From positions 1 to 32,696 of the forward strand of contig JAZRFS010000153.1 in the NCBI GenBank assembly GCA_045643765.1: a DNA stretch of 32,696 bases, in the 5' to 3' direction. Numbering within the stretch: position 1 is the stretch's first letter; each line of letters starts with the position of its first letter. The stretch comes from Eubacteriales bacterium (lineage in GTDB: Bacteria > Bacillota > Clostridia > Oscillospirales > CAG-272). The position numbers were made by a program, and so were the translations under genes. This document shows positions 10,328 through 25,206 of this stretch, piece after piece. The notes beneath the pieces were generated by a model, which worked only from the letters and a program-made list of their open reading frames with translations, made no database searches and had not been told where the DNA came from.

Positions 10328-10543
10328 ACTACTCTTCCGTCGTCCTGCTTGCCTGTGGCAAGTGGCGGACGCCACCTTCCCTCACAAGGGAAGGCTAACA
10401 ATGTCCATAGTCTTATCAATGGACGGGATGTTTGATAAAAATTCAAGGAATAGATGTTATTGCCGTCTATTGCCAAGAAGCAACGAGTTAAGCGGCCTTC
10501 CCTTGTGAGGGAAGGGGGACCGCGTTAGCGGTGGATGAGTAGT
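10328..10543. repeat. Family B inverted doublet (ACTACTC...GAGTAGT) with CCTTCCC-type hairpins
   Basis: Perfect 21-bp inverted repeat 10375-10395 / 10495-10515, each arm itself a hairpin; terminal ACTACTC 10328-10334 / GAGTAGT 10537-10543; ACCGC-GTTA-GCGGT sub-hairpin; ~100 nt AT-rich spacer. Confidence 0.85.
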
Positions 10544-10732: not shown

Positions 10733-12694
10733 TTAATAATCCACCAACGGGACGATGGTGGTGGTATTAGAGAACAGATAGGCGTTGTAGCCAAATGCCG
10801 CCATATACTGGTCGAAGCAGGTCTGGATCTCGCACTCGCGCGGACCGATCTCGGCAAGGAACTCTTGGAACAGCTCCGCCGCCTCGGGGCCGGCACCCAG
10901 ACACTTGGGGATCAGGCACTTGGCAAGTCCGCGGCAGAAATCCATATAGTAGCGCAGCAGCTTGAACATCACGGTCTGCGCGCGGTAGGGCATCACGCGG
11001 TGTTTCTCGATGAACTCGGCATACTCCTCGGTGATCTTCGGCACCTGACGGATCTCCTCGGCAACCGCAGGGTTGTAGCGCGAGGAGAGCTTGGGGCTGG
11101 CGCGGCGCTTGCCCTCCATGTATTTGACGTCCACCGCGTCACCGAGCTTACCGAACAGCTCTGCCACGGTGCGCCAATCCTCGCCGTAGGCGTGGGAGAA
11201 ATAGTCCTCCAACAGATCCTCGAATTTGAGCGAGGTGTCAAACTGTACCTGTCCGTACAGGAAGAAGGCAAATCCGTTGGGCCAGAAGCTGCGCTGCGAG
11301 CAGTCGTTGATCAGGCCGTTCAGACCGTGCTTTTTGTAGTTGATGATGTCATCGTAGACCACGCGCGCGAACTTGAATACGCCCAGATCCATGTACTGAT
11401 GGACGTAGAAGTGATACTCGTAGAGCATCGCGCGCACGCCGCACTTTTCCTGCCATTCCTGACCGACCTTGACATACTGATCCGCGCTTTTGAACAGCTC
11501 GTTTGCATTGTGCTGATAAGCAGGGTAGGTCACGTCCGAGATGTCGGCGCTGACGGGCACGGTGTAGTTGCGCGAGATGGGAGCCACCAGCAGTGTGAAG
11601 CGCTTGGGGTTGTCCAATCTTGCCTCGATGGGCGGCCAGGAGGTGTCTACGTAGCAGATGAACACGATGCGCGTGTTCAGTCCCTTTGCCTCCAGCATCT
11701 GATCCAGCTCGTTCATCATGATGACGTACCAGTCGGAGGGGGTCTTCTTGCGGCACTCGTCACACTCGCAGTGGTTGTTGAAGTGGTCGGCAAGCCATAC
11801 GTGCAAGAAGTCCACGTTCTTGTGGTTCACGGCGTAGTCTACGATCGCGTTGTTTGCGATCTCGCGCGCCTTGGGGTTGGACATGCAGATGTTGGTGGTG
11901 TAGGTGTTGGGGTTGGTGGGGCAAAGTCCGCGGCGGCCGCCCATCATTGCGATCAGAGGCAGCATATCCTCGGGGTAGGGGCAATCGTCCGCCGAGAGCG
12001 CCTGCTCTGCCTTCACGCCGAAGGGCTCGGCGCACCAGCCGTGTCCCATATCGTGGAACTGCAAGCCGCGCTTGCTGATCTCCGCCTCGCACTGGCGCTT
12101 GTATTGCAATGCGGTGCGGTCGTCGATCGGCTCTTTTTCGCGCGTGGGATTGAATTTGTGGTTGTAGTAGGAGTTGTAGTAGCCGCGCGGATTGAAGAAT
12201 TCGACCATGAAGATGTTCAGGCCGATCTTGGGCGTGAAGTCGATGACCTCCATCATGTTGGACTGGAACTCGGCGCCCTCGTTGCACTGACCGCGGAAGC
12301 GGCAGTCCGCCATCTTGTGATACTTGACGGCTTTGATGTCCTGCATCGGGATAAACTCACCGTCGATGCCGGGGAAGAGCCAGCGGCAGCCGTTCTCCTG
12401 CAAGTAGCGGTAGACCGCGAACAGCACGGAACGGGGGTTGGAGCCCGCCAGCACGCCGTTGCCGTTTTCGTCCACGTCCACGTGCACGATGTCGTCAAGC
12501 TCGACGTCCTCGGCTTCGCTTGTGTCAAGACCGAAGTCCTGCATCAACCCAAGGCGCAAGCCCTCGGTCGCGTCCGCGTCACGGGTGATGAAGATCTCAC
12601 CGCACTCGGGCATCATCATTCTTAAATATTTTTTCAGCTCCTCGGCGGCAAAATCCACCGTGGGATTGGAGGTAATTTTCTTGATTTGATACAT
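10733..12694 (-). CDS. DUF4838-type protein, copy 5 (653 aa)
   Basis: ORF track; family motifs; most similar to copy 4. Confidence 0.82.
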   Translation of the reverse strand: MYQIKKITSNPTVDFAAEELKKYLRMMMPECGEIFITRDADATEGLRLGLMQDFGLDTSEAEDVELDDIVHVDVDENGNGVLAGSNPRSVLFAVYRYLQENGCRWLFPGIDGEFIPMQDIKAVKYHKMADCRFRGQCNEGAEFQSNMMEVIDFTPKIGLNIFMVEFFNPRGYYNSYYNHKFNPTREKEPIDDRTALQYKRQCEAEISKRGLQFHDMGHGWCAEPFGVKAEQALSADDCPYPEDMLPLIAMMGGRRGLCPTNPNTYTTNICMSNPKAREIANNAIVDYAVNHKNVDFLHVWLADHFNNHCECDECRKKTPSDWYVIMMNELDQMLEAKGLNTRIVFICYVDTSWPPIEARLDNPKRFTLLVAPISRNYTVPVSADISDVTYPAYQHNANELFKSADQYVKVGQEWQEKCGVRAMLYEYHFYVHQYMDLGVFKFARVVYDDIINYKKHGLNGLINDCSQRSFWPNGFAFFLYGQVQFDTSLKFEDLLEDYFSHAYGEDWRTVAELFGKLGDAVDVKYMEGKRRASPKLSSRYNPAVAEEIRQVPKITEEYAEFIEKHRVMPYRAQTVMFKLLRYYMDFCRGLAKCLIPKCLGAGPEAAELFQEFLAEIGPRECEIQTCFDQYMAAFGYNAYLFSNTTTIVPLVDY

Positions 12695-12704
12695 GGTGTT
12701 TTAC

Positions 12705-12858
12705 GCGGGAAAACTTTTGGGAAAGTTTTCCCGCACCCTTTCAAAACCCTTTATATAAGGGGTATTTTGGTGTGCGTTGATTTTTAGCTTGTGTTGTTTT
12801 TTATAAGTTTTGAGGGGTTGTAGGGGAATTTTCCTAAAAGTTCCCCTAACGCCTCTCC
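12705..12858. repeat. Family A palindromic doublet (no core motif)
   Basis: Hairpins 12705-12734 (13 bp) and 12821-12848 (imperfect); abuts stop at 12859. Confidence 0.88.
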
Positions 12859-14826
12859 TTAGTCGGCCTCGAAGAAGGTCTTGGCAGAGCAAAGGATACG
12901 GTTCCAGGAGGAGTATGCCATACGCTGATCGAAGTAGGTGCCGATCTCAAACTCGTGGCGGCCGAACTTGTTTTCCATGGGGCGGAACTTTTCCACGACC
13001 TCGGGGTCTGCGCCCAGTGCCTTGAGCGTCCAGATCTCGGCAAGGTCGGTGACGTACTCCATGTGGTAGCGGATCAGCTTCATGGACACGGTCTGTGCGC
13101 GGTAGGGCATCACCTTGTGAGATTCAAAGATGGGGGCGTACTTTGCCACGATGTCCTTGACGGCACGGAAGCGCTTGGCGTGCGCGGGAGAGTAGTAGCC
13201 GGCGGCGGGCTGATCGCCGCCCTTGTTGGCGTCGCGCTTGGCGCCGTCCATGATGTATGCCATATCAAACGCCTCGGTGATTTCGGTGAGGTAGGCGATC
13301 ACGTCGTCCGCGATCTCGCCAAAGGCGTGGGTGAAGTAGTCGCGCTTGATCTCCTCCAGGTCTGCCTTGGTGTCAAACAGGGTTTCCGCGTAGGTAAGGA
13401 AGTGATAGCCGGTGGGGAAGAAGCTGCGCTGCGAGCCGTCCTGAATGAGGCCGTTGAAGCCGTGCTTGTAGTAGCCCTTCACGTCGTCGTGAATGAGCTT
13501 TGCGAACTGCATCGAGCCGGGATCGCGGTACTGGTGCAGCCAGAAGTGATACTCGTATACCATCGTGGGAATGTCGGCTGCCTTCTTCCACGCCTGACCG
13601 TGCAGAATGTACTCCTCAACGGTCTTGGGGAAGGTGCCGTGCTTGTTCAGCTGGAAGGGTGTCAGCTTGATCTTGGGCAGCTCCTGCGGTACGGGGGAGG
13701 TGTAAACGCGGGTAATGGGGGCGAGGAGGAAGGAGAAGCGCTTGGTGTTCTTGATCTTTTCCTCAAGAGGTGCCCATGTGGTGTCGGTGTAGCAGATAAA
13801 CACGATGCGGGTTTCCAGCGCTCTTTCGGTGAGAAGCTCGTCGATCTCGTTCATCAGCATCACGTACCAGTCGGAGGGCGTCTTCTTACGGCACTCGGCG
13901 CACTCGCAGTGGTTGTGCGAGCCGTCGGCAAGCCAGACGTGCAGATAGTCTGCATTCTGGTGCTTGTAGGCGTACTCCGTGACGTACTTGGCAACGATGC
14001 TGCGCGCCTCGGGATTGGACATGCAGAACTGGGTGTTCGGCGCCACGCCGCCCCACAGCTCTCGCACGCCGTCAAGCTCGGCAAGGTACTGGCGCGCGTT
14101 TTCCAGATTGGGCTGCTTGCCCTCTACCCAACCGTCGGAGGAGTCAAGACCGAAGGGCTCGGCGGTCCAGCCGTGTCCCATGTCGTGGAACTGGAGGGAG
14201 CGCTTGGAAAGCTCTGCCTCGCACTGGCGCTTCCACTGCTTGGTGGTGACGGCGGTGACGGGCTCGGCAGCGCGGTTGCCGTGGTTGTGGTTGGCGTTGT
14301 AGTAGAAGTCGTAGTACGCCTTGGGGTTATCGAACTCCATCATGAACACGTTCATGCCGATCTTGGGCTGGAAGTCGATGATCTCCATCATGTTGGGCTG
14401 ATACTCGCCACCCTCGTTGCACTGACCGCGGTAGCGGCAGTCAGCCATCTTGTGGTACTTGGTGGGCTTTACGTCCTGCATCGGGATATACTCGCCGTCC
14501 ACACCGGGGAAGAACCAGCGGCAGCCGTTCTCGCGCAGATAGCGGTATACAGAAAGCAGCACGGAGCGATGGTTGGAGCCGGCGATGATGCCGTTCTCGC
14601 CATCGGTGTCCACGTGCAGAATATCATCAAGGAACAGATCCTCCGCTTCGCTTGTGTCAAGCCCGAAGTCGGACATAAGCCCTAAGCGCAGACCGTCCTT
14701 TGCGTCGGGGGCGTATTCGATGAAGATCTCGCCGCACTCGGGCATCATCATTCTCAAATACTTTTTCAGCTCCTCGGCGGCAAAGTCCACCGTGGGGTGG
14801 GAGGTGATCTTGTAAATCTTGTACAT
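12859..14826 (-). CDS. DUF4838-type protein, copy 6 (655 aa)
   Basis: ORF track; AAGGAG upstream of ATG; family motifs. Confidence 0.82.
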   Translation of the reverse strand: MYKIYKITSHPTVDFAAEELKKYLRMMMPECGEIFIEYAPDAKDGLRLGLMSDFGLDTSEAEDLFLDDILHVDTDGENGIIAGSNHRSVLLSVYRYLRENGCRWFFPGVDGEYIPMQDVKPTKYHKMADCRYRGQCNEGGEYQPNMMEIIDFQPKIGMNVFMMEFDNPKAYYDFYYNANHNHGNRAAEPVTAVTTKQWKRQCEAELSKRSLQFHDMGHGWTAEPFGLDSSDGWVEGKQPNLENARQYLAELDGVRELWGGVAPNTQFCMSNPEARSIVAKYVTEYAYKHQNADYLHVWLADGSHNHCECAECRKKTPSDWYVMLMNEIDELLTERALETRIVFICYTDTTWAPLEEKIKNTKRFSFLLAPITRVYTSPVPQELPKIKLTPFQLNKHGTFPKTVEEYILHGQAWKKAADIPTMVYEYHFWLHQYRDPGSMQFAKLIHDDVKGYYKHGFNGLIQDGSQRSFFPTGYHFLTYAETLFDTKADLEEIKRDYFTHAFGEIADDVIAYLTEITEAFDMAYIMDGAKRDANKGGDQPAAGYYSPAHAKRFRAVKDIVAKYAPIFESHKVMPYRAQTVSMKLIRYHMEYVTDLAEIWTLKALGADPEVVEKFRPMENKFGRHEFEIGTYFDQRMAYSSWNRILCSAKTFFEAD

Positions 14827-14869
14827 GACTTTGTTCTCCTTTTTCAGGGTGATATATTTTTATTTTTTA

Positions 14870-16834
14870 TTATACGTCAAAGGTCAGGTTTTCCTTGCGC
14901 TTGAAGATGCGGTGGGAGAGCGCCCAGGTGGCAAGGAAATGATCGTAGCAGGTGGCGATCTCGTGCTCGCGGCGACCGAAGTCCGCCTGGAATTTGGCAA
15001 ACAGCTCCTTTGCCTCAGCGCCTGCGCCGAATGCCTTGGGAATGAGGCACTTGACGATACTTTCGCAGTATTCCATATAGTAGCGCAACAGCTTGTACGC
15101 TACGGTCTGCGCGCGATAGGGCATCACGCGGTGCGCTTCAAGGAAGTCCTTGTATTCTGCGGCGACCTTCGGCATCTCGCGCAGCTCGTCGGCAACTGCA
15201 GGGTTGTAGTGCTTGCCGATCTCTCTGTTCGCGGAGCGCTCACCGTTGAGGTAATGCGTGTCGATGCTCTTGCCGATCTTCTCAAGCAGGGTAAGCACCT
15301 CTTTCCAGTCCGCGCCGTAGGCGTGGGAGAAGTAGTCCTCGACCAAGTCCTCAAACTTGAGGGACGTGTCAAACTGCACCTGTCCGTACACGGTAAAGGC
15401 GAAGCCGTTCGGCCAAAAAGAGCGTTGCGAGCAGTCGTTGATCAGGCCGTTGAAGCCGTGCCTGTGGTAATTCTGAATATCGTCATAGATCACACGGGCA
15501 AAATCCAGCACGCCAAGGTCAAGATACTGTGCCAGCCAGAAGTGATACTCGTAAAGCATCGCAGGCACGCGGCAGCACTCCTGCCAGTCCTTCGCGCACT
15601 TGATATAGGGCGCCACGGTGGGGAACATCGTGAGGTTGTTGCGCACGTAAGGCGTGTAGGTCGCGTCCGAAACGTCTGCAGGCACGCTTTGCGTATAGCT
15701 GCGCGAGATGGGCGCGGAGAGAAGCGAAAAGCGCTTCGGGTTTTTGACGCGCTCGACAAGCGGCGGCCACGCCGTGTCCATATAGGAGATAAACACGATA
15801 CGCGTGGCAAGCTCGCGCGCCGTAAGGGCGGCGTCCAGCTCGTTCATCAGCATCACGTAGTAGTCGGAGGGGATCATCTTTTGGCATTCCTCGCACTCGC
15901 AGTGGTTGTTCGAGGAGTCCGCCAGCCACACGTGCAGATAGTCCACGTTCTGGTGCAGGTGGGCGTAATTCACGATGTAATCGACCACAAGCTTGCGCGC
16001 ACGCGCGTTGGACATACAGAACTGCGTGTTCATCGGGCCGCGGAAGTGCACCTTGCGCTCGCCGTTCAGCATCGCAAGGAACTCGCGGCTTTCGGGCGGC
16101 ACGGGTGCCTCGCCGCCCTTGTCCTCGCCGTGCTTCCAGCGGTAGGCGGTGTCCATGCCGAAGGGCTCGGCGGTCCAGCCGTGTCCCATGTCGTGGAACT
16201 GCAAGCCGCGCTTTGAGATCTCCGCCTCGCACTGGCGCTTCCATTGTACCATCTGCTCCGCGGTGACGGGCTCTGCATCGCGCGCGGGATTGTTCATCGC
16301 GCTGTAATAGCGGTTGTAATAGACGTACGGGCAGGCAAATTCCAGCATAAAGACGTTCATGCCGATCTTGGGCGTGAAGTCGATGGCCCCCATCATGTTG
16401 GGCTGATATTCCGCGCCCTCGTTGCACTGACCGCGGTAGCGCATGTCCGCCATTTTGTGGTACTTGACCGCCACGATGTCCTGCATCGGAACGTACTCGC
16501 CGTCAATGCCGGGGAAGAGCCAGCGGCAGCCGTTTTCCTGTAAGTAGCGGTACACGGCAAACAGCACCGAGCGCGGATTGGAGCCGGCAAGCACGCCGTT
16601 GCCCGCATCGTCCACGTCCACGTGCACGATGTCGTCAAGCTCCACGTCGTCGGCTTCGCTTGTATCAAGCCCGAAGTCCTGCATCAACCCCAGGCGTAAG
16701 CCATCGGTTGCAGCGGGATCGCGGGAGATGAAGATCTCGCCCGCCTCGGGCATCATCATTCTTAAATATTTCTTCAGCTCCTCGGCGGCGAAATCCACCG
16801 TCGGGTGTGCGGTTATTTTCTTGATTGAATACAT
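14870..16834 (-). CDS. DUF4838-type protein, copy 7
   Basis: ATG 16834 (MYSIKKI) by paralog homology; family motifs. Confidence 0.8.
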   Translation of the reverse strand: MYSIKKITAHPTVDFAAEELKKYLRMMMPEAGEIFISRDPAATDGLRLGLMQDFGLDTSEADDVELDDIVHVDVDDAGNGVLAGSNPRSVLFAVYRYLQENGCRWLFPGIDGEYVPMQDIVAVKYHKMADMRYRGQCNEGAEYQPNMMGAIDFTPKIGMNVFMLEFACPYVYYNRYYSAMNNPARDAEPVTAEQMVQWKRQCEAEISKRGLQFHDMGHGWTAEPFGMDTAYRWKHGEDKGGEAPVPPESREFLAMLNGERKVHFRGPMNTQFCMSNARARKLVVDYIVNYAHLHQNVDYLHVWLADSSNNHCECEECQKMIPSDYYVMLMNELDAALTARELATRIVFISYMDTAWPPLVERVKNPKRFSLLSAPISRSYTQSVPADVSDATYTPYVRNNLTMFPTVAPYIKCAKDWQECCRVPAMLYEYHFWLAQYLDLGVLDFARVIYDDIQNYHRHGFNGLINDCSQRSFWPNGFAFTVYGQVQFDTSLKFEDLVEDYFSHAYGADWKEVLTLLEKIGKSIDTHYLNGERSANREIGKHYNPAVADELREMPKVAAEYKDFLEAHRVMPYRAQTVAYKLLRYYMEYCESIVKCLIPKAFGAGAEAKELFAKFQADFGRREHEIATCYDHFLATWALSHRIFKRKENLTFDV

Positions 16835-16846
16835 TTGGTTGGGTGT

Positions 16847-16977
16847 TGTGAGGAAACTTTTTGCAAAAAGTTTCCTCACACTCCTTCAAAAAATTTTGGG
16901 GTGATTGATGTTTTTTGGGGGTAATAAGAAATGTTTCGCTAACAATTCGGCTATTTGCAAGCTGGGGAAACGCTCTC
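16847..16977. repeat. Family A single-hairpin element
   Basis: Perfect 34-nt palindrome 16847-16880, degenerate core GCTAACAATTCGGCT 16938-16952, remnant GGGGAAACGCTCTC next to stop at 16978. Confidence 0.8.
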
Positions 16978-18297
16978 TTATTTCAGCGCGTCAAGCAGCA
17001 CACGGGTGGCTTCTACCATCTTGTCCTTGGTGCCGTATCCCAGCTGACCTGCGTAGTAGCGGCCGCCGTAAGCGGTGCTGCCGAGCGTGCTGTCGGGGGG
17101 AATGTAGCCGAAACGGCCGTTCGTCTGCTCGCTTATAAGTATCTTCTTTTCGGGCGCGACTGCCTTCATGGCAAGACCGATCTCGGTGTAAAGCTCACCG
17201 GGAACGGTAAGGATCGTCCAGTCGCCCAGGCGCATGCCGACCGTTTCCATTTCGATCGTGGTGGGGGCGGTGGGATCGTAGGAAAGAACGCTCTCCATCA
17301 CGCGGCGCTCGCCGCCATAAAGGCGCTCGCCCGCGTCCTCGCGTGCCTTGGTCTTTTGTGCCGCCTCGGTTTCCCATGCGGCCGGCACGCGCGTTTGGTA
17401 GGTGTCGGTGTGAGAGATCGCGCGCACGTCGGGAGTGCAAGCACAGGTCTTGATATTTTTATTGATGCCGACCACCGTTTCGGTCAGCAGCTTGCCCATC
17501 TCCTCGGGCATATAGGTGGTACCGGAGGCGTACTTTTCGCTCACGCCGCTTTTGTAGTTGTAGGCGTTTACGTCACCGCAAGCACCGTTGAGGAAGACCA
17601 CTACCACGTCCTGCCCGTAGATCATCTTCAGATTTTCGCGCAGGTAACCGATAAAGTCTGAGGAGAAGTGCGTGCTCTTGGTGTTATCGTTGTCGGGGTG
17701 GTTGGCGTAGTTGACAAGGAACGCGGCGGGCTCGCCGTCAGCGCCGTCCACGCGCATCACGTGCACGTCATAGTCCACCGTGCCGAGGTACCCGACGATG
17801 CGGTCCTTCGCCGCCTTGCCGGGAATGGAACGGATCGTGCCGTCGTCCAGAATGCAATCGCGGTTGAAGCTCATACGCTTCTCCTCGCCCTTGCCCGTGC
17901 CGATGGCAAAGCCGTCCTTCATGCTCTCGAACGCTTCCACGGCAACCTTGACGATGCCGTCGTCGGTGTATTTTGCCACGTACGGCTCGCCGGGCGCGCC
18001 ACTGTTGTCCTCGTAGCCCGATGCACCCGTGTGGGTGTGGGTAGCGGCGATCAGAATATTCGATACGGGCACGCCCGTTTTCTCGCTGATGCGCGCGCGC
18101 AGATCGTCTGCGCGGTCGGTGAAGATGCCAAGCGCATCCACGGAAACGAGGATGACGCTCTCCTTTTCCCCTGCAAACGCCGCGGCGTTTGCGAAAAGAG
18201 GGCAGCGCGCTTCGCCGCGCGCCCAGTAGGGCAGGCCCTCACCGGGCATAAAGCCCTCGATGGGGGTCACGTCAAATTGTGCAAATCCTGCTTTCAT
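16978..18297 (-). CDS. Neutral/alkaline ceramidase-like amidohydrolase, copy 1 (439 aa)
   Basis: Motifs ATHTHTG, SFNR, NYANHPD, FLNGACGDVN, PGELY, GYIP typical of the neutral/alkaline non-lysosomal ceramidase N-terminal-domain family; AGGAG RBS; no signal peptide. Confidence 0.75.
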   Translation of the reverse strand: MKAGFAQFDVTPIEGFMPGEGLPYWARGEARCPLFANAAAFAGEKESVILVSVDALGIFTDRADDLRARISEKTGVPVSNILIAATHTHTGASGYEDNSGAPGEPYVAKYTDDGIVKVAVEAFESMKDGFAIGTGKGEEKRMSFNRDCILDDGTIRSIPGKAAKDRIVGYLGTVDYDVHVMRVDGADGEPAAFLVNYANHPDNDNTKSTHFSSDFIGYLRENLKMIYGQDVVVVFLNGACGDVNAYNYKSGVSEKYASGTTYMPEEMGKLLTETVVGINKNIKTCACTPDVRAISHTDTYQTRVPAAWETEAAQKTKAREDAGERLYGGERRVMESVLSYDPTAPTTIEMETVGMRLGDWTILTVPGELYTEIGLAMKAVAPEKKILISEQTNGRFGYIPPDSTLGSTAYGGRYYAGQLGYGTKDKMVEATRVLLDALK

Positions 18298-18344
18298 AAT
18301 GGGTTCTCCTTTGGGTGCGATGGATTTTAATTTTCGGAGGTGGA

Positions 18345-18557
18345 ACTACCCCACCACCAACTTCGTTGGTCCCCCGCGACCGAGTGTAACGAGTGTCGAC
18401 GTGCTCGCAAAGCGAGGACAACGCCCACTCGCAAGGGGCGGACCGGTTGGTGCGAACATAGCAAGTAGTCACATAACAATTTTATGTTGAACAATGCGGC
18501 TACATTGTCCCTCCCTTGAGAGGGAGGGGGGACCACCAGCGGTGGTGGGAGGGTAGT
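18345..18557. repeat. Family B inverted doublet with nested family C insert, directly downstream of DUF559 gene
   Basis: ACTACCCCACCACC...GGTGGTGGGAGGGTAGT ends; hairpins ACCAAC-TTC-GTTGGT, CCCTCCCT-TGAG-AGGGAGGG (18509-18528), ACCACC-AGC-GGTGGT; core ACAATGCGGCT 18491-18501; insert 18377-18423. Confidence 0.85.
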
Positions 18558-18577
18558 AACAATAAACAATGCGGTTA

Positions 18578-18928
18578 TTATAAATTGTCGATCTTTTCCA
18601 AAATATCGGCAATCACGCCACGAAAATTTTTTTGAACGCTTTCGTTGGAATAGCGCAACACGGTGATGCCAAGAGATTGCAAATACAAGTCACGTTCCTC
18701 GTCTTCTTTTCTCGCTTCCGGTGCGGTATGCTGTATACCGTCTACCTCGATGACCGTTTTTGCTTTTGGGATATAAAAATCCACGATATAACGCCCAATC
18801 ACCTTTTGTCTTTTCACGCGAACGGGTAACGAGCAAAGAAAATCAAACCAAAGGTGCTTTTCTTCTTCCGTCATTTCCTTGCGCAGAGATTTCGCGTTGT
18901 GTAACAGATTTTTTCGGTAAGGGAGCAT
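18578..18928 (-). CDS. DUF559 (Vsr-like) endonuclease domain protein (116 aa)
   Basis: AKSLRKEMTEEEKHLW, RQKVIGRYIVDFY, IEVDGIQH, DEERD...GITVLRYSN are the DUF559 signature; visibly AT-richer than neighbours; ATG 1 nt after the upstream TGA. Confidence 0.9.
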   Translation of the reverse strand: MLPYRKNLLHNAKSLRKEMTEEEKHLWFDFLCSLPVRVKRQKVIGRYIVDFYIPKAKTVIEVDGIQHTAPEARKEDEERDLYLQSLGITVLRYSNESVQKNFRGVIADILEKIDNL

Positions 18929-18929
18929 T

Positions 18930-20249
18930 TCAACCCAGCTCGTCTACCAGTGCCTTGGCGGCGGCGGTCATCTTGTCCTTCGCGCCGTAGCCGAGGCGGC
19001 CGGAGTAGTAGCGTCCGCCGTAAGCGGTAGAGCCGAGGGTGCTGTCGGGGCAGCAGTAGCCCACGTGACCGTTGGTCAGCTCACTGACAAGGATCTTCTT
19101 GTCGGGGGCGACCGCCTTCATGGCAAGGCCGATCTCGGTGTAAAGCTCGGCGGGCGTGGTGAGGATCGTCCAATCCCCAAGGCGGATCACCTGCATCTCC
19201 ACGTCCATCGTTTGAGGGGCGTTCGGATCAAAGGAAAGCGTGGTGTTCATCACGGAGCGCGCGCTGTTTACCATACGCTCACCGGCGTCCGCGCGTGCCT
19301 TTTTCTCCTGTGCGTTTTCCACTTCCCAAGCGGCGGGGGTGCGCTTTTGATAGGTGTCCGTGCGGACAGCCGCGCGCACGTCGGGGGTGCAGGCGCAGGT
19401 CTTGATCTCGCGGTTGATCTTGCACACGGTTTCGGTCAGCAGCTTGCCGATCTCCTCGGGCATATAGGTGAGAGCGGAGGCATATGCCTCGCTTACGCCG
19501 CTTTGATAGTTGTAGGCGTTGACGTCACCGCACGCGCCGTTGAAGAACAGCACCACAACGTCGCGGCCGTAGATCATCTTCAGATTTTCGCGCAGATAAC
19601 CGATAAAGTCGGAGGAGAAGTGGGTGCGTCTGGTGTTATCGTTGTCGGGGTGGTTGGCGTAGTTGACAAGGAACGCAGCGGGCTCGCCGTCGGCACCGTC
19701 CACGCGCATCACGTGCACGTCATAGTCCACCGTGCCAAGATAGCCAACGATGTGACCCTTTGCCGCCTTGCCGGGGATGGATACGAGGCGTCCGTCGTCC
19801 AGCTTGCAGTCGCGGTTGAAGCTCAGGCGCTTCTCCTCGCCCTTGCCTGTGCCGATCGCGAAGCCGTCCTTCATGCTCTCGAACGCCTCGACCGCGACCT
19901 TCACCACGCAATCGTTGGTGTAGTCAGCGATGTGGTGGTCGCCGGGAACGCCGTCGCACGCCATGTGCAGGTTCGCACCCGTGTGCGTGTGCGTGGCGGC
20001 AAGCAGAATATGCGAAGCAGGGACGCCCGTCTTTGCCGCAATACGCGCGCGAATGTCGGTGGCATAGTCGGTCTCAAACAAAAGCTGGTCAACCGAGATC
20101 AGAATAACGGTCTCCTTCTCGCCTGCAAACGCCGCGGCGTTGGCGAACAGGGGGCAGCGCGCCTCGCCGCGCGCCCAATAGGGCAGACCCTCGCCGGGCA
20201 TAAAGCCCTCCAGAGGGGTGAAATCAATTTGTGCAAATCCTGCTTTCAT
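18930..20249 (-). CDS. Ceramidase-like amidohydrolase, copy 2 (439 aa)
   Basis: Same motifs; long identical stretches with copy 1; AAGGAG RBS. Confidence 0.75.
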   Translation of the reverse strand: MKAGFAQIDFTPLEGFMPGEGLPYWARGEARCPLFANAAAFAGEKETVILISVDQLLFETDYATDIRARIAAKTGVPASHILLAATHTHTGANLHMACDGVPGDHHIADYTNDCVVKVAVEAFESMKDGFAIGTGKGEEKRLSFNRDCKLDDGRLVSIPGKAAKGHIVGYLGTVDYDVHVMRVDGADGEPAAFLVNYANHPDNDNTRRTHFSSDFIGYLRENLKMIYGRDVVVLFFNGACGDVNAYNYQSGVSEAYASALTYMPEEIGKLLTETVCKINREIKTCACTPDVRAAVRTDTYQKRTPAAWEVENAQEKKARADAGERMVNSARSVMNTTLSFDPNAPQTMDVEMQVIRLGDWTILTTPAELYTEIGLAMKAVAPDKKILVSELTNGHVGYCCPDSTLGSTAYGGRYYSGRLGYGAKDKMTAAAKALVDELG

Positions 20250-20281
20250 AGCGGTTTCTCCTTGTAAAGGTTAATTTCAAT

Positions 20282-20405
20282 GTGGCACAATGCCACTTTC
20301 GCCAACAATGCGGCTGTCGGCTTTTTCTTTTGTATAAAAGGTTTTCGGAGGGGGGGGTGGGGGAGGGGCTTTTATCAAAAGCTCTCCCCCACCAAATGTT
20401 TTCCC
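20282..20405. repeat. Family A half-element
   Basis: GTGGCA-CAA-TGCCAC plus core GCCAACAATGCGGCT 20282-20315; hairpin 20356-20393; abuts stop at 20406. Confidence 0.82.
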
Positions 20406-21803
20406 TTATTGAAACTTCCGGTTGAAAAGGCGGTTGTCCTTGATCTCGCCCATGCGATGCTGGATGTGCGACTCAAACATTCCCTTGAGCATCGTGACCG
20501 CGCCGTCCACAAGGATGTCGGCGGTGCCGAGCCCTGTGTAGGAAATGTTGGAGTAGATGCTCTCATAGCAGCCGCCGCGCAGCACGTAGTCGGGTGCGAT
20601 GTAGCCGTGCGAGCCGTCGGCAAGCTCGACCACCACGGTGTGCGCGAAGGGGGAGAGCGCCTTGATTTTAAGCCCGATCTCGGAGAAGATCTCGCCGGGC
20701 AGACCCACGAATACGATGTCGCCCAGCTGCAGCACGTGTACGCCGATGTCCATCAGCTTCGGCGTGTTCTCAGCGTCCTCTGCCAGATAGATCTCTGCGC
20801 ACTGTCTGTCGTGGCTGCACGCGTGATCCTCCATCTTGCCGTTTTTCTCAAGGTATTCCAGATACTGCTTTGCCCACTCCTTGCGCTCGGGCGTTGCATA
20901 GCGGCGCGCGGTGGGGAAGGTGCAGTATCTGCCCTGGATCAGCGCCTCACCCTCTCGGGTGTAAACGGGCGGATTCATCTTTTCAATGGTGTCGGCAAGT
21001 CCCTCACCGATGTGCCAGCTGGAGTAGGTCTTGGGGAGGACGTGCGTTTTCTTGTGGTTGTAGTTCTTGAAATCGTAGTGGTTGATATTGCCGCAGCAGC
21101 CGTTGAGGAAGAGCACCACCACGTCGCGGCCGTACTTGCGGCGCAGCGCCTCGCGCATCGTGCCCGCGTAGTCGGCGTCAAACTTGTCGGGGTGAGCATT
21201 GGTATCTAGATGCAGCGCGTAGTTGACCACGAAGCAAAGCGGATAGCCCTCCATATCGTCAAAGCGCATCACGTTCACGCTTTGGTCGATGTCCGAGATC
21301 GGGCCTACCAGATCGCCTGCCCATCCAAGCCCCGGGTTGGTGACGATCTCGCCTTTCACGGAGAAGAAGTCGCGGCAGAAGGAAAAGCGTGTTTCGTAGG
21401 TGCGGCCCGTGCCCATCTTGACCTCGGCAAGCTGCTCGTTGGCGGCGATCACCGCCTGTACGGCAGCGTCCGCTACGGGAATGAGCGCGTCGGGGTTGGC
21501 GGGGCAGCCCCAGCAGCGCACGTCGGTCTCACAGCCCGTGTGGGTGTGGGTGGTATGTACGAAAATATAATCGGTGGAGATCTTCAGCACCTTGCCGATG
21601 CGCTCGCGCAGAGCGCTTGCCCAGTCAACGGTAACAAAGATGATGTCAAGCGACAAAAGCACCGCTTTGATACCTTTGCTTTCGATCACGGCGGCGTGCG
21701 CCATCAGGGGGGTGAGCTTGCCCTTGCCGTAATGCCCCTTGATCTGACCGGGGATCGGCCCTTCCGCGGGGGTGTATTCTCTTTCTGCAAATCCTGCTTT
21801 CAT
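20406..21803 (-). CDS. Ceramidase-like amidohydrolase, copy 3 (465 aa)
   Basis: TTHTHTG, NYALHLD, FLNGCCGNIN, PGEIF motifs; AAGGAG RBS. Confidence 0.75.
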   Translation of the reverse strand: MKAGFAEREYTPAEGPIPGQIKGHYGKGKLTPLMAHAAVIESKGIKAVLLSLDIIFVTVDWASALRERIGKVLKISTDYIFVHTTHTHTGCETDVRCWGCPANPDALIPVADAAVQAVIAANEQLAEVKMGTGRTYETRFSFCRDFFSVKGEIVTNPGLGWAGDLVGPISDIDQSVNVMRFDDMEGYPLCFVVNYALHLDTNAHPDKFDADYAGTMREALRRKYGRDVVVLFLNGCCGNINHYDFKNYNHKKTHVLPKTYSSWHIGEGLADTIEKMNPPVYTREGEALIQGRYCTFPTARRYATPERKEWAKQYLEYLEKNGKMEDHACSHDRQCAEIYLAEDAENTPKLMDIGVHVLQLGDIVFVGLPGEIFSEIGLKIKALSPFAHTVVVELADGSHGYIAPDYVLRGGCYESIYSNISYTGLGTADILVDGAVTMLKGMFESHIQHRMGEIKDNRLFNRKFQ

Positions 21804-21855
21804 ATCGGTTCTCCTTGTGTGAGTGTTGGTTTTTTATAAATCGTGGATGGCGGGA

Positions 21856-22062
21856 ACTACCCCACCACCGCGGGGCCAATTCGGCTTATGCCGAATAGGT
21901 CACTTGCTTCGCAAGATGCGCGGTCCCCCGCCCCTTACAAGGGGCGGACGAGTGAGTGCGAACATAGCACACAGCTTTTTAAAAAGTTAAAGCAAATAAT
22001 GCGGCTACATAGTCCTCCCCTTGAGAGGGGAGGGGGACCAACGAAGTTGGTGGAGGGGTAGT
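21856..22062. repeat. Family B inverted doublet
   Basis: ACTACCCCACCACC...GGTGGAGGGGTAGT ends; hairpins CCGCCCCTT-AC-AAGGGGCGG, CCTCCCCT-TGAG-AGGGGAGG, ACCAAC-GAA-GTTGGT; GTGCGAACATAGCA and AATGCGGCTACAT shared with the 18345 copy. Confidence 0.85.
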
Positions 22063-22078
22063 AACAATTCCCGATCGC

Positions 22079-23461
22079 TCAATTCTTTCTGGTCGTATGT
22101 GCAGGGCGCATCGCAACGCCGCCGACGGTTTTGTCAAGATACTCCTTGTGCATCTCGCAAAGCATCTTGGTGGCACCGTTTACCAGCACGTCCACCGTGC
22201 CGTGTCCCGTGAAGGCGATGGTGCTGTAAATGCCCTCGTACGCGCCGCAGTCCTGAATGATGTCGGGGGAGATGTAGCCGTTCGCGCCGCTCTCCAGCTC
22301 TACCACCAAGGTCTTGGGGTAGGGGGAGTTCGCCTTGATGCGCGTGCCGATGCAGGTGTAGATCTCACCGGGCAGTCCGACGATCGCCCAGTCGCCCACC
22401 TGCATTACGTGCACCTCCACCTCGCAGGTGGCAGGCATCTCCTCGGGCTCGGCAAGATATTGCTCGGCAAGCAGCAGCGAGTGCTCGTTCATCTTCTCCT
22501 CGCCTGCGTCCTTTTTCGAAAGGATCATCTTCGCCCACTCGCGCATCTCGGCGGTGGCGTGGCGGCGCAGGGTTTCCTGCATCTCGGAATTGGCATGGAT
22601 GAACGGATCCGCATCCTTCATTACAATGCCCTCGTTGATCTTCGCAACCGTTTCGGCAAGTCCCTCGCCGATCATCTCGGGCGGACAAAGTCCGTGGCCG
22701 CGGTAGCTGTCGGAGGTGCGGTATTTGAAGTCTATATCGTTCACGTCACCGCACGTGCCGTTGAGGAACACCACCACCACGTCGCGGCCGAAGCGGCGGC
22801 GGAGCGCCGTGCGCAGATAACCGGGGTAGTCGGCAGAGAACTTGTCGCGCAGCTTGTGGTTGTCGGGGTGGTTCGCGTAGTTGACGATGAAGCACTTGGG
22901 GCGATCCTCCTCTACACTGTCGATACGCATGACGTGTACGGACTGATCCACCGTGTCGAAGGGAGCGACAAGATCGTCACCCTTGAAGCCGGGGTTGCTG
23001 CGAAGTCTGCCGTCAGCCATGTACCAGTCGCGGTTGAAGCTGTATCTGGTCTCAAAGCCCTGACCTGTGCCAAGTCTTGCCTCAACGCGGTTTTCAAATG
23101 CCTCCACAGCGGCGGCAACTGCCATCTCACCGGCAAATTCCGCGACCTCGGGCTCGGCAGGTGTGCCCCAGCACTGATAGTCGGTGCCGCACCCCGTGTG
23201 CGTGTGCGTGCACGCGAGCAAAATATTTTCCACGGGCACCGAGATGGCGTCCGCGATCTTCTTCTTGATGCGATCCGAGAGGGCGGTGGTGATGAAGATG
23301 ATGTCCATCGCCACAAAGACCGCGGTCTTGTCGCCTGACGTGATCACGGCGGCGTGCGCCATCAGCGGCGTGCGCGTGCCTTTTGCAAAGTAAGGGCCGA
23401 TCTCGCCGGGCATATTGCCCTCGGCAGGTGTGAATTCTCTTTCTGCAAATCCTGCAAGCAT
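22079..23461 (-). CDS. Ceramidase-like amidohydrolase, copy 4 (460 aa)
   Basis: CTHTHTG, SFNR, NYANHPD, FLNGTCGDVN, PGEIY; GGAGGT RBS. Confidence 0.75.
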   Translation of the reverse strand: MLAGFAEREFTPAEGNMPGEIGPYFAKGTRTPLMAHAAVITSGDKTAVFVAMDIIFITTALSDRIKKKIADAISVPVENILLACTHTHTGCGTDYQCWGTPAEPEVAEFAGEMAVAAAVEAFENRVEARLGTGQGFETRYSFNRDWYMADGRLRSNPGFKGDDLVAPFDTVDQSVHVMRIDSVEEDRPKCFIVNYANHPDNHKLRDKFSADYPGYLRTALRRRFGRDVVVVFLNGTCGDVNDIDFKYRTSDSYRGHGLCPPEMIGEGLAETVAKINEGIVMKDADPFIHANSEMQETLRRHATAEMREWAKMILSKKDAGEEKMNEHSLLLAEQYLAEPEEMPATCEVEVHVMQVGDWAIVGLPGEIYTCIGTRIKANSPYPKTLVVELESGANGYISPDIIQDCGAYEGIYSTIAFTGHGTVDVLVNGATKMLCEMHKEYLDKTVGGVAMRPAHTTRKN

Positions 23462-23486
23462 TTTGGTACCTCCAATGTGTGTGTTC

Positions 23487-23730
23487 GTGGGGAAAACTTT
23501 TTCAAAATTTTCCCCACACCCTTTTCAAAACCTTTTGAAGAAGGGGGAATAGGTGTTGTTCGTTGTTGGTTCGTTGTTTGTTTATAAATCGCGGATGCGA
23601 GGCGTCGACGCCCCGTATGGCATAATGCCTTAATCGCAAACAATGCGGCTACACAAAGTCTTTTTTTATTGAGAAGTTTTGAAGGGGTCATAGGGGAAAC
23701 TTTCCTAAAAGTTTCCCCTGACGCGTCTCC
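23487..23730. repeat. Family A palindromic doublet
   Basis: Hairpins 23487-23517 and 23692-23719; GGCATAATGCC plus core GCAAACAATGCGGCT 23636-23650; abuts stop at 23731. Confidence 0.9.
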
Positions 23731-25053
23731 TCAATACAACTTCTTCAGCGTTTCCACGCTGCCGGCGACGATGGTGTCCATCGCGCCAAAGCCGGTGGTG
23801 CCGGAGCTGAAGCGGCCCTCGTACGAGCCGTTCTCGCGCACGCTGTCGGGAATGACGTAGCCGTGGTGGCCGTTGGCAAGCTCTACGGGAATGGTGTGGG
23901 TGAAGGGCGAGCCCTCTTTGATCGAGCGACCGACGGCGGTATACATCTCACCGGGCATCGCGATCATACCCCAGGGACCCACGCGGTAGCCCGTGACCAC
24001 GAATTCCTCGGTTTCGGGGACGTTCTTGCTGCCCTCAACGTACGCCATCGCCGTGCCGTACTCCCAGACGACGGGGTACTCGGTCTTGGCTTTCTCCAGC
24101 ACGTCGGCAGCCCAGGCGCGCTCGGCATCGGTGATCTGGCGGCGCTTGACCGTGAGGGGATTTTCCAAAACAGCTACGGTGTTGTCGCTCACGTCCTCGG
24201 CGGTGTGATCCAGTGCCTTGATGATCGTGTCTGCCATGCCGTTGCCGATGACCTCGGGAGCGATCACGTCGGGGGCGTTGTGCAGCTTAAGGTGTGTTTG
24301 GTTGAGGAAATCAAAGTGGTTGACGTCACCGCAGCAGCCGTTGAAGAACAGCACCGTGACGTCCTCGCCGTACTTTTCCTTCAGTGCGATGCGCATAAAG
24401 CCGGGCCAGTCGGCGCAGAATTTGTTGCGCTTGCGGGTCTTGCCGTTATTGGTGTCGGGGTGGTTGGCGAAGTTGACCATGATGGCGACGGTTTTGCTGT
24501 CCTGCATCACGCGCATAATTTCAATTTGATGATCGGGCACGTCGCAGGTGCGCAGGATCTCATCGTAATATTTAGGGGCGGGATTGGTCTTGATGCGGCC
24601 GTCCTTGAGTACCACGTCGCGGACGAAGGAAAAGCGCTTTTCCTCGGCGGTGGCGACCTGAAGGGTTGCGCCCTCGCTCATATTTTCAAACGCCCGGATG
24701 GCGGCACTTGCGATGCGGTGCGCCACGACCTCGGCGATCTCGGGCTCTGCGGGGGATTTCCAGCAGGGGAGGTCGTAGGAGGGACCCATGTGGGTGTGGG
24801 TGGCGGCAAGCAGAATATTTTTGACGGGCAGACCCGTAGCGGCGGCAACGCGGCTGCGGATGTCGGCGGCATAAGCGCTGTGGAACAGCAGATGGTCGGC
24901 GGAGATCAGAATGATGGTCTCACCGTTATTTTCAAACGCGGCGGCGTTTGCCTGCAGGGGGGTGTAGGCACCGTTTGCGTAATACGCATCAAACTCACCC
25001 GGCATAAAGCCCTGTTTGGGGGTGTATTCAACTTCTGCAAATCCGGCTTTCAT
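23731..25053 (-). CDS. Ceramidase-like amidohydrolase, copy 5 (440 aa)
   Basis: Start MKAGFAEV at 25053 with AAAGGAG RBS (the track's 25437 start crosses the promoter and terminator); ATHTHMG, NFANHPD, FFNGCCGDVN, PGEMY. Confidence 0.78.
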   Translation of the reverse strand: MKAGFAEVEYTPKQGFMPGEFDAYYANGAYTPLQANAAAFENNGETIILISADHLLFHSAYAADIRSRVAAATGLPVKNILLAATHTHMGPSYDLPCWKSPAEPEIAEVVAHRIASAAIRAFENMSEGATLQVATAEEKRFSFVRDVVLKDGRIKTNPAPKYYDEILRTCDVPDHQIEIMRVMQDSKTVAIMVNFANHPDTNNGKTRKRNKFCADWPGFMRIALKEKYGEDVTVLFFNGCCGDVNHFDFLNQTHLKLHNAPDVIAPEVIGNGMADTIIKALDHTAEDVSDNTVAVLENPLTVKRRQITDAERAWAADVLEKAKTEYPVVWEYGTAMAYVEGSKNVPETEEFVVTGYRVGPWGMIAMPGEMYTAVGRSIKEGSPFTHTIPVELANGHHGYVIPDSVRENGSYEGRFSSGTTGFGAMDTIVAGSVETLKKLY

Positions 25054-25168
25054 TTGTGGTTCTCCTTTGTATGGATGAAATTTTTCCGCACGCGTATGCG
25101 AGCGCGCGAGAAATAAAAGGCACCTGTCGCCGCTCTCTATATAATAGAGAGGGTGGGCGCTTACGGCA

Positions 25169-25197: not shown

Positions 25198-25206
25198 CCC
25201 TATTTT

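What the first reader, a model, noticed from the sequence alone, without database searches (positions are those of the whole stretch)
18345..18928. Candidate DUF559-endonuclease / palindromic-repeat system (RAYT-REPIN analogue)
Seen: a stand-alone AT-rich DUF559 gene sits between the two most similar ceramidase-like paralogs, 1 nt from the upstream stop, and is followed directly by a family B doublet. Nuclease-free family B doublets recur at 10328-10543 and 21856-22062. It is the only nuclease or recombinase-like gene in a window full of short palindromic elements. Established: REP/REPIN elements are linked to HUH (RAYT) transposases; DUF559 is a Vsr-like nuclease fold without an assigned role. 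Inference: DUF559 may be the trans-acting nuclease that spreads or processes these hairpin elements, and might promote the local duplications.
Basis: partly seen in the sequence, partly recalled or inferred. Interest (0 to 1): 0.8.

Follow-up and report, generated by a model that had tools for sequence, protein, structure and literature searches.

The report
Small nuclease gene tied to palindromic repeats
A small DNA-cutting enzyme gene of unknown role sits against a hairpin-forming repeat that is also scattered through this gut bacterium's genome, and the same pairing turns up in distant bacteria including E. coli, so the enzyme and the repeats probably belong together.

Summary
Window 18578-18928 (-) is an intact 116-aa YcjD-type DUF559 (Vsr/EDxHD-fold) nuclease gene. 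With the 213-nt doublet at 18345-18557 it forms one ~585-bp block that is missing between the same two paralogs in a congener.

The repeat unit is a C-rich block, a variable covarying hairpin, a C5 linker and a CCYCCC hairpin. The block mirrors the hairpin arm, as in E. coli BoxC/PIT "triplex" repeats.

- Both DUF559 genes of this genome abut a doublet.
- Across the genus, repeat load tracks DUF559 presence and does not track Y1 (RAYT-type) transposase.
- In 45 of 78 DUF559 loci from Clostridia, Alphaproteobacteria and others, inverted copies of such motifs bracket the ORF. None of 142 displaced controls shows this.
- E. coli ycjD lies beside a BoxC copy.

The HUH-like mechanism and the idea that the gene promoted the paralog duplications are not. 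Most likely the nuclease recognises or cuts the units, and break repair (homing-like) spreads the ORF and the units. No cleavage data exist. I found no paper making this link.

The parts
18578..18928 (-). YcjD-type DUF559 nuclease ORF, 116 aa, intact
   Evidence: PF04480 E 1.3e-28. AF2 model pLDDT 90. Best folds are 3hrl, 3r3p (I-Bth0305I) and Vsr. Invariant D50, E61, D63, H67, D76 in 26 homologues. dN/dS 0.04 against the syntenic G028 copy.
18558..18577 (.). 20-nt spacer between the stop codon and the ACTAC end of the first unit
   Evidence: The second DUF559 gene (C199) has a spacer of about 19 nt.
18507..18557 (-). Unit 1 of the doublet, in the same orientation as the gene: ACTA + C-rich block, hairpin 1, C-rich linker, hairpin 2
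   Evidence: R1 70.3 bits.
18444..18506 (.). Doublet spacer with motifs shared by other B1-type doublets
18345..18443 (+). Unit 2 of the doublet, inverted, carrying a ~53-nt internal insertion
   Evidence: R1 36.1 bits. One metagenome contig shows a variant that skips 53 nt.
18345..18929 (-). Whole ~585-bp block (ORF + spacer + doublet), absent from the empty site in G034 and present at the syntenic site in G028
10328..10543 (.). Nuclease-free doublet, subtype B2 (units 10328-10396 + and 10494-10543 -)
   Evidence: One unit has 100%-identical copies in G010.
21856..22062 (.). Nuclease-free doublet, subtype B1 (units 21856-21949 + and 22012-22062 -)
   Evidence: Present at the orthologous site in G028 and absent in G034 and G015.
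18930..20249 (-). Upstream ceramidase-like paralog; its stop is 1 nt before the DUF559 ATG
   Evidence: PF04734 E 7.8e-7, below the cut-off.
16978..18297 (-). Downstream ceramidase-like paralog; it starts 47 nt after the doublet
   Evidence: PF04734 E 3.7e-8.

Best explanation
The ORF encodes an active, selectively maintained YcjD-type DUF559 nuclease. Its fold and catalytic residues are those of Vsr and of the EDxHD homing endonuclease I-Bth0305I. Its cognate DNA site is the family-B unit.

The gene and the adjoining doublet form one inserted cassette. The same units occur without the ORF as dispersed inverted doublets.

Inferred mechanism: the nuclease recognises the structured unit, which consists of a hairpin plus a mirror-repeat block, at its ACTAC/GTAGT end. 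It nicks or cuts there. Recombinational repair from another copy (homing-like copying, gene conversion) then spreads and homogenises the units and carries the ORF to the unit's end. In this window the ORF has no unit or promoter room upstream, so it is probably expressed by read-through or coupling from the ceramidase-like gene.

Shown: the anatomy, the association, the insertion polymorphism, purifying selection and the fold.
Inferred: the cleavage site, the repair-based spread, and which partner drives which.
For: 1. Both DUF559 genes of the genome (59% identical) have a doublet about 19-20 nt after the stop, each of a different unit subtype. There are only 11 elements in 1.78 Mb.

2. Subtypes pair up. 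P0001 and G028 (86% identical) go with B1 units; C199 and G010 (78% identical) go with B2 units. That is only two pairs.

3. Genus of 39 genomes.
- With 5 or more units, 22 of 24 have DUF559; the misses, G007 and G016, are 70% and 52% complete.
- With 2-4 units, 5 of 6 have it.
- With 0-1 units, 0 of 9 have it.
- Units far outnumber genes in G028 (56 to 1), G002 (41 to 1) and G010 (37 to 3).

4. No Y1_Tnp or TnpB family match in this genome. In the genus Y1_Tnp occurs in 11 of 24 repeat-rich genomes and 3 of 9 repeat-poor ones; G028, G010 and G031 have none.

5. An inverted repeat brackets the ORF in 30 of 49 loci and 15 of 29 loci. Displaced pseudo-genes score 0 of 89 and 0 of 53. The bracketed loci include Hyphomicrobium-type genomes, where the flanks are BoxC-like motifs present 52 and 33 times per genome against a control of 0.

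6. Empty, doublet-only and ORF+doublet states occur at orthologous sites. An ORF-less [unit-][unit+] module sits inside an otherwise homologous element. Empty [- +] doublets have 8-15-nt centres.

7. The protein profile hits I-Bth0305I at E 1.5e-6 and Foldseek at 6e-4.

8. dN/dS is 0.04 with pS 0.66, while the adjacent unit is almost unchanged apart from a swapped hairpin-1 allele.

9. E. coli ycjD ends inside a CCCTCTCCC hairpin and has a BoxC copy about 180 nt downstream, one of 23 in K-12 against a control of 1.
Against: - No biochemical data exist. A hydrolytic PD-(D/E)xK nuclease cannot by itself join DNA.
- The window's own copy, like C199, G028 and G006, has units on one side only and fails the bracket test (L001 score 14, z -0.4).
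- The family is small here (11 elements), and I saw no target-site duplication.
- The boundaries of the 21856-22062 insertion are not clean.
- ORF-less elements persist in genomes where no DUF559 was found: G036 (99% complete, 4 units) and G035.
- Outside the genus some DUF559-positive genomes give no R1 match (G040, G053, G071), although their flanks show other hairpin classes by eye.
- In the multi-copy 'class ii' relatives the DUF559 module rides inside a 1.2-1.5-kb element whose ends are different inverted repeats. That element is inserted in terminator-hairpin loops, so another enzyme could move it.
- Part of the genus correlation is built in, because each gene brings its own unit or units.
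- Related genomes are not independent samples.
Confidence: 0.62

Rival explanations
1. Homing parasite only. The palindromic units spread by some other means. The DUF559 gene is a free-standing homing endonuclease gene that cuts the centre or end of unit pairs and is copied there by repair. It does not propagate the ORF-less units.
For: - The ORF sits exactly where empty [- +] doublets have an 8-15-nt centre.
- Sequence and fold are related to a proven homing endonuclease that cuts a pseudo-palindrome.
- ORF-less elements occur in genomes where no DUF559 was found.
- Three states occur at the site between the two genes flanking the C199 copy.
Against: - No other candidate mobiliser was found in this genome.
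- Repeat load tracks DUF559 across the genus.
- In this genome the ORF-less copies are [+ -] doublets whose ACTAC ends face outward, so the presumed palindromic target centre is not present in them.
- dN/dS of 0.04 at a syntenic site suggests a maintained function rather than a decaying homing gene.
Confidence: 0.2
2. Hitch-hiking or regulatory coincidence. The units are terminator-, insulator- or SD-sequestering hairpins that gather in intergenic hotspots. Small horizontally acquired genes such as DUF559 land in the same hotspots, and the nuclease has an unrelated role (Vsr-like repair or defence).
For: - Hairpin 2 with A/T runs resembles a bidirectional terminator.
- The unit's G-rich end serves as the Shine-Dalgarno sequence of bracketed ORFs.
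- The site between the two genes flanking the C199 copy took several different repeat insertions.
- A Caulobacter Vsr-like protein is linked to cytosine methylation in a paper I saw only as a search listing and abstract.
Against: - 0 of 142 displaced controls show the bracket, against 45 of 78 genes.
- The motif class changes with the protein class across phyla.
- No methyltransferase family appeared among the 20 window ORFs scanned.
- The other abundant hairpin family of this genome (family A) does not show the same adjacency at 2 of 2 genes.
Confidence: 0.1
3. The repeats are moved by a RAYT, an IS200/IS605-type enzyme or another transposase that was lost from the incomplete assemblies. DUF559 is a passenger.
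For: - The genome is 83% complete in 212 contigs, and IS copies often fail to assemble.
- Y1_Tnp occurs in 15 of 39 congeners.
- Class ii modules lie inside elements with other terminal repeats.
Against: - No Y1_Tnp or TnpB match in this genome.
- Repeat-rich G028, G010 and G031 (the last 97% complete) have no Y1_Tnp, while G021 and G024 have it with 0-1 units.
Confidence: 0.06

Closest known systems
REP/REPIN elements with RAYT (HUH Y1) transposases
   Same: Short palindromic units paired as inverted doublets that fold into long hairpins. A small enzyme gene is flanked by the same units. In this genus there are one or two gene copies at syntenic sites under purifying selection, with many more ORF-less doublets. 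Gene and repeats co-occur across genomes.
   Different: The enzyme is a hydrolytic Vsr/EDxHD-fold nuclease, not an HUH tyrosine transposase. Copy numbers are tens, not hundreds. The unit carries a mirror-repeat block. In other lineages the gene is multi-copy and patchy.
EDxHD (Vsr-like) homing endonuclease I-Bth0305I (PDB 3r3p; PMC3239194, passages read)
   Same: The catalytic domain is homologous (profile E 1.5e-6; Foldseek 6e-4). The D/E-D-H-D residues are conserved. The ORF sits in the middle or at the end of a (pseudo)palindromic site that exists in ORF-less form.
   Different: There is no NUMOD/HTH DNA-binding domain, and no intron or intein. The presumed target is a dispersed non-coding repeat, not a conserved host gene.
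BoxC / PIT / TMECO intrastrand-triplex repeats of E. coli (PMC4666352, passages and one section read)
   Same: Three blocks with mirror symmetry (C-C-G on one strand, C-G-G on the other), GC-rich, intergenic, dispersed, of unknown origin. One BoxC copy lies just downstream of E. coli ycjD. Hyphomicrobium-type DUF559 genes are bracketed by nearly canonical BoxC-like motifs.
   Different: In the window's units the linker between the blocks holds a 15-25-nt hairpin. That is outside the 1-6-nt loops the paper searched. That paper reports finding no mobility gene near the motifs and does not mention ycjD or DUF559 in its main text.
IS elements and their MITE derivatives
   Same: In many relatives the ORF fills the space between ~50-nt inverted repeats and runs into the right one. 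ORF-less versions are dispersed. Insertion polymorphism occurs between species.
   Different: No DDE, HUH or serine/tyrosine recombinase. No target-site duplication seen. The dominant ORF-less form here is inside-out ([+ -]) relative to the ORF-bracketing form ([- ORF +]).

Membership tests
DUF559 (PF04480) / YcjD-type stand-alone nuclease | Pfam match above the curated cut-off over the whole domain | tested here: met
   99.5 bits against 20.6; residues 7-113 of 116.
DUF559 (PF04480) / YcjD-type stand-alone nuclease | Equivalog of E. coli YcjD (NCBIfam NF007294) | tested here: not met
   55.2 bits against a cut-off of 218. Same family and length, but not an equivalog.
DUF559 (PF04480) / YcjD-type stand-alone nuclease | Vsr-like restriction-endonuclease fold with conserved acidic and His residues | tested here: met
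   pLDDT 90. 3hrl E 8.7e-6, TM 0.66-0.81. D50, E61, D63, H67, D76 invariant in 26 sequences.
EDxHD homing endonucleases | Catalytic domain homologous to I-Bth0305I | tested here: met
   hmmsearch E 1.5e-6; Foldseek E 6e-4.
EDxHD homing endonucleases | N-terminal NUMOD/HTH DNA-binding region; residence in an intron or intein | tested here: not met
   Only about 35 N-terminal residues precede the core and they carry no other Pfam family. The ORF is free-standing and intergenic.
EDxHD homing endonucleases | Cleaves the ORF-less allele and is copied into it | not testable with these tools
   Only presence/absence states at orthologous sites were seen.
RAYT-REPIN system | HUH Y1 transposase gene flanked by the repeats | tested here: not met
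   No PF01797 match in the genome. The flanked gene is DUF559.
RAYT-REPIN system | Inverted doublets of a palindromic unit that fold as a long hairpin | tested here: met
RAYT-REPIN system | Co-occurrence of gene and repeats across relatives | tested here: met
   22 of 24, 5 of 6 and 0 of 9 genomes by repeat load. Partly built in, and the genomes are related.
BoxC/PIT intrastrand-triplex motif | Third block mirrors the hairpin arm (Hoogsteen-compatible, parallel register) | tested here: met
   86.5% C.G/T.A in the parallel register against 55% antiparallel; 0 of 2000 shuffles reach it; 71 distinct units.
BoxC/PIT intrastrand-triplex motif | Short loops (1-6 nt) between the three blocks | tested here: not met
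   A hairpin of about 15-25 nt, up to about 65 nt with insertions, separates block 1 from hairpin 2. Loop rule taken from PMC4666352, section 15.
BoxC/PIT intrastrand-triplex motif | Triplex formation in vitro | not testable with these tools
   -
IS/MITE | Terminal inverted repeats plus target-site duplication plus a transposase of a known class | tested here: not met
   The window copy has units on one side only. No duplication seen at 11 elements. No known transposase family in the cassette.
Vsr very-short-patch repair | Partnership with a cytosine-5 methyltransferase | tested here: not met
   No methyltransferase family among the 20 window ORFs scanned. The rest of the genome was not searched.

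The most novel reading that the evidence does not exclude
YcjD-type DUF559 nucleases are the missing enzyme behind BoxC/PIT-type 'triplex' palindromic repeats across bacteria, from gut Clostridia through Alphaproteobacteria to E. coli. Together they form a new class of minimal selfish element: a ~115-aa hydrolytic nuclease gene set between two structured half-sites. It spreads itself and its ORF-less repeats through structure-specific nicking and host repair, not through transposase chemistry.
Probability: 0.35. Interest if true: 0.9.

Novelty: new variant of a known kind. Interest (0 to 1): 0.82.

Why it matters
DUF559/YcjD is a widespread protein family with a solved structure and no assigned role. 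BoxC/PIT repeats have been known in E. coli since the 1990s (as stated in PMC4666352), and no enzyme or origin has been assigned to them.

A specific link would give both a testable function in a tractable organism, E. coli K-12. It would add a second, mechanistically different enzyme class to repeat-enzyme partnerships of the REP/RAYT type. It would also point to small nucleases that may read DNA shape (hairpin, cruciform, triplex) as well as sequence.

For genome annotation, it explains AT-rich mini-ORFs and contig breaks in many gut metagenome-assembled genomes.

Tried and rejected
- Rfam at gathering thresholds gave no match in the window.
- Complex prediction on two copies of the protein gave no verdict. 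It is not used either way.
- The look-up of sequencing runs listed no RNA holder and only small shares, at most 0.11.
- Read laying on four DNA runs gave only short contigs, mostly 90-95% alike, and no piece spans the stretch. Nothing about expression or population polymorphism can be said. I note only that several contigs match from 18345 onward and differ before it, and that one contig skips 53 nt inside unit 2.
- Doublets as simple internal-deletion derivatives of [unit- ORF unit+]: rejected for this genome, because its doublets are in the opposite arrangement, [+ -].
- Watson-Crick pairing of block 1 with the hairpin-2 arm: rejected, because the antiparallel register fits only 55%.
- Orthologous empty site for the doublet at 10328-10543: not resolved, because of the many paralogs.
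- The species tree was not built, so gains and losses at the two loci are not polarised.
- Supplementary files were not opened. Those of PMC4666352 (gene contexts of the triplex motifs) could show whether ycjD was listed there.

Full report
**1. What is there**

The window is a whole 32.7-kb contig (C153) of a 1.78-Mb draft genome in 212 contigs. The draft is 83% complete and has 55% GC. Close relatives of the DUF559 protein come from uncultured Clostridia, Eubacteriales and Oscillospiraceae genomes assembled from animal-gut metagenomes.

The window holds seven tandem ~650-aa paralogs, some matching DUF4838. These are followed by five ceramidase-like paralogs, all on the minus strand.

Between two of the ceramidase-like genes lies a 116-aa ORF at 18578-18928 (-). 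It matches DUF559 over its whole length (E 1.3e-28). Its ATG is 1 nt after the upstream stop. Its GC is 0.43 in flanks of about 0.6.

**2. The repeat**

Twenty nucleotides after the stop begins a 213-nt element (18345-18557) made of two inverted units. Read from its outer end, each unit has these parts:
- ACTA;
- a 7-nt C-rich block;
- hairpin 1, whose sequence varies while its pairing is kept;
- a CCCCC or CCACC linker;
- hairpin 2, with stem CCYCCC and loop TCNCAA.

A covariance model (R1) built from 14 units finds 21 units in 11 elements on 8 contigs. Three of the elements are in the window. On 92 distinct units from this and related genomes, 11 of 13 base pairs change on both sides and 0 of 500 shuffles reach the covariation score. 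That alignment was fitted to the model. The doublets fold as long hairpins closed by ACTACCC...GGGTAGT, with z -4.6 and -9.3.

A further regularity: the C-rich block mirrors the pyrimidine arm of hairpin 2.
- Read in parallel with the purine arm, it gives C.G or T.A at 86.5% of positions in 71 distinct units.
- The antiparallel register gives 55%, and shifted registers at most 72%.
- Shuffled rows give 73.3 +/- 1.3%, and 0 of 2000 reach the observed value.
- Six or more block/arm combinations covary.

This is the symmetry of BoxC/PIT 'intrastrand triplex' repeats (PMC4666352; passages and section 15 read). The difference is that a hairpin replaces their short linker.

**3. Link to DUF559 in this genome**

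The genome has two DUF559 genes, 59% identical to each other. The second, C199:3612-3974 (-), also has a doublet about 19 nt after its stop. That doublet is of the other subtype (B2, like window 10328-10543).

With 11 elements in 1.78 Mb, two hits out of two is very unlikely by chance. My rough bound is below 1e-3. This is an inference, not a computed test.

No Y1_Tnp and no TnpB-type match was found in the genome. The genome is incomplete.

**4. Relatives**

In 39 genomes of the genus, R1 units occur in 36 and DUF559 in 27.

| R1 units in genome | Genomes | With DUF559 |
|---|---|---|
| 5 or more | 24 | 22 |
| 2-4 | 6 | 5 |
| 0-1 | 9 | 0 |

- The two misses in the top class, G007 and G016, are 70% and 52% complete.
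- Units greatly exceed genes in G028 (56 to 1), G002 (41 to 1) and G010 (37 to 3).
- Part of this correlation is built in, since a gene brings its own unit. The genomes are also related to each other.
- Y1_Tnp shows no such pattern: it occurs in 11 of 24 repeat-rich and 3 of 9 repeat-poor genomes, and is absent from G028, G010 and G031.

R1 matches lie within about 100 nt of the gene in 19 of 31 loci, and, by my reading of the table, in 29 of 55 loci.

By sequence, most relatives show the ORF bracketed by inverted units. One unit ends 3-15 nt before the ATG, and its G-rich end doubles as the Shine-Dalgarno sequence. The other starts just after, or overlaps, the stop.

I then ran a model-free test for an inverted repeat between the start region and the stop region.
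- It passes in 30 of 49 loci from the search for related loci. I tested 50 of the 76 loci returned, leaving out truncated and weak partial matches, and one of the 50 was too short.
- It passes in 15 of 29 loci from the order-level search; two more were too close to contig ends.
- It passes in 0 of 89 and 0 of 53 displaced pseudo-genes.
- The window's own copy and its nearest relatives (C199, G028, G006) fail this test. They have units on the 3' side only.

Several motif classes exist, and they change together with the protein class.

**5. Beyond Clostridia**

In Hyphomicrobium-type genomes the ORF is bracketed by inverted, nearly canonical BoxC-like motifs at -55..-16 and +25..+64. That motif occurs 52 and 33 times in two such genomes, against a control of 0. 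The pairs are spaced about 436 nt apart with the ORF or about 106 nt apart without it.

In E. coli K-12:
- the ycjD ORF ends inside a CCCTCTCCC hairpin;
- a duplicated 3' end follows it;
- a BoxC copy lies about 180 nt downstream, one of 23 in the chromosome against a control of 1.

A 2026 paper (PMC12817139, passages read) reports that ycjD stands where the eefRABCD operon is missing in some E. coli phylogroups.

**6. Mobility**

First site, the window locus.
- G034 has the two ceramidase-like paralogs about 45 nt apart, with no ORF and no doublet.
- What G000 has in addition is exactly the ATG through the GTAGT end (18345-18929).
- G028 has the ORF at the same place, followed by three doublets.

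The doublet at 21856-22062 is present at the orthologous site in G028 and absent in G034 and G015. The indel boundaries are not clean.

Second site, the C199 locus. Y and Z are my labels for the genes immediately upstream and downstream of the C199 DUF559 copy.
- The ORF+B2 doublet is shared with G010.
- G028 has a B1 doublet only.
- In the three relatives whose junction I read, Y and Z lie 13 nt (G006), 37 nt (G033) and about 100 nt, holding a family-A hairpin (G015), apart.
- By the match coordinates Y and Z are also close in G034, G031, G002, G032, G023 and G009.

Near-identical multi-copy 'class ii' modules (5-7 per genome, often at contig ends) lie inside 1.2-1.5-kb insertions. These insertions carry a cargo ORF and different terminal repeats, and they sit exactly in the loops of terminator hairpins. 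The empty sites are in G029 and G008. One such element carries [unit-] 20 nt [unit+] with no ORF.

Empty [- +] doublets with 8-15-nt centres occur in G006, G031 and G010.

At orthologous doublets of G000 and G028 the hairpin-1 allele differs while the rest is conserved. One B2 unit is 100% identical in G000 and in several G010 copies. This points to constraint or conversion between copies.

**7. The protein**

- The AlphaFold2 model has pLDDT 90.
- The best structural matches are the DUF559 protein 3hrl, the I-Bth0305I catalytic domain 3r3p, and Vsr.
- The profile hits 3r3p at E 1.5e-6.
- D50, E61, D63, H67 and D76 are invariant in 26 homologues. They match the composite EDxHD motif described for I-Bth0305I (PMC3239194, passages read).
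- dN/dS against the syntenic G028 copy is 0.04 with pS 0.66. The gene is maintained, not decaying.

**8. Reading**

The chemistry cannot be RAYT-like. The nearest working model is a homing-type nuclease whose site is the repeat. Nicks or breaks at units would be repaired from other copies, which would spread the ORF and spread and homogenise the units.

Whether the nuclease drives the ORF-less doublets or only parasitises them is open.

The suggestion that the gene promoted the paralog duplications is not supported, because G034 has the tandem paralogs without the cassette.

**9. Novelty**

These full-text searches found no paper linking DUF559 or YcjD with REP-like, BoxC or triplex repeats:
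- DUF559 + repeat;
- boxC with repeat terms;
- ycjD;
- intrastrand triplex / BoxC;
- DUF559 / COG2852 with mobile-element and repeat terms.

PMC4666352 says no mobility gene was seen near the motifs, and its main text names neither ycjD nor DUF559.

The library omits most subscription journals, and supplements were closed. The older BoxC papers were not seen.

Noticed in passing
window 1645-16879 and 16978-25437: Two tandem paralog arrays on the minus strand. Seven ~650-690-aa genes sit at ~2.0-2.4-kb spacing, some matching DUF4838. Five ceramidase-like genes of 439-568 aa follow, then a phosphotriesterase-family gene and an M24 peptidase gene.
   Followed up: partly
window e.g. 3760-3813, 5982-6035, 12794-12847, 23665-23718, 28626-28679, 30761-30814: A second, more abundant intergenic hairpin family ('family A': a TTTTGA..GGGG motif followed by a GGGGAAAACTTTT..AAAAGTTTTCCCC palindrome) lies between most genes. 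It looks terminator-like and shows no link to DUF559.
   Followed up: no
window 18487-18503, 18566-18580, 21993-22008, 23638-23653, 3737-3750, 30690-30705: A short motif (AACAATGCGGCTACA and variants) recurs inside B1 doublet spacers, and also outside doublets next to family-A hairpins. Its role is unknown.
   Followed up: no
L146 (G038:C14) 1746-2991; L164 (G008:C53); L170 (G029:C24): A family of 1.2-1.5-kb insertions with ~18-nt terminal inverted repeats (CTCTNAAGGACAGTTTT). They carry a variable small cargo ORF plus the DUF559 module and sit exactly in the loops of intrinsic-terminator hairpins. Empty sites are seen in close relatives.
   Followed up: partly
L069 (E. coli K-12 NC_000913.3 1351039-1351830): ycjD has a perfect 17-nt palindrome over its SD and start region and a partial duplicate of its own 3' end downstream, followed by a BoxC copy. 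A 2026 paper reports ycjD in the place of the eefRABCD operon in some phylogroups.
   Followed up: partly
G081 and G082 (genomes of L117 and L113): BoxC-like motif GGGGAGGGGTTAGGGGTGGGG is present 52 and 33 times (control 0). Inverted pairs are spaced about 436 nt (with a DUF559 ORF) or about 106 nt (without).
   Followed up: partly
window 22012-22062 and 21856-21949 against G028:C13 8179-8342; window 18507-18557 against G028:C13 4711-4760: At orthologous doublets the hairpin-1 sequence is a different discrete allele in the two species, while the rest of the unit is nearly unchanged. This suggests exchange between copies.
   Followed up: partly
L163 (G010:C95:11431-11505): A minimal 75-nt element in which two inverted units share a single hairpin 2. 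It may be the basic symmetric form of the family.
   Followed up: no
L040 (G028:C13 about 4390-4400): A short run of N inside the doublet array downstream of the G028 DUF559 gene, so the number of doublets there is uncertain.
   Followed up: no
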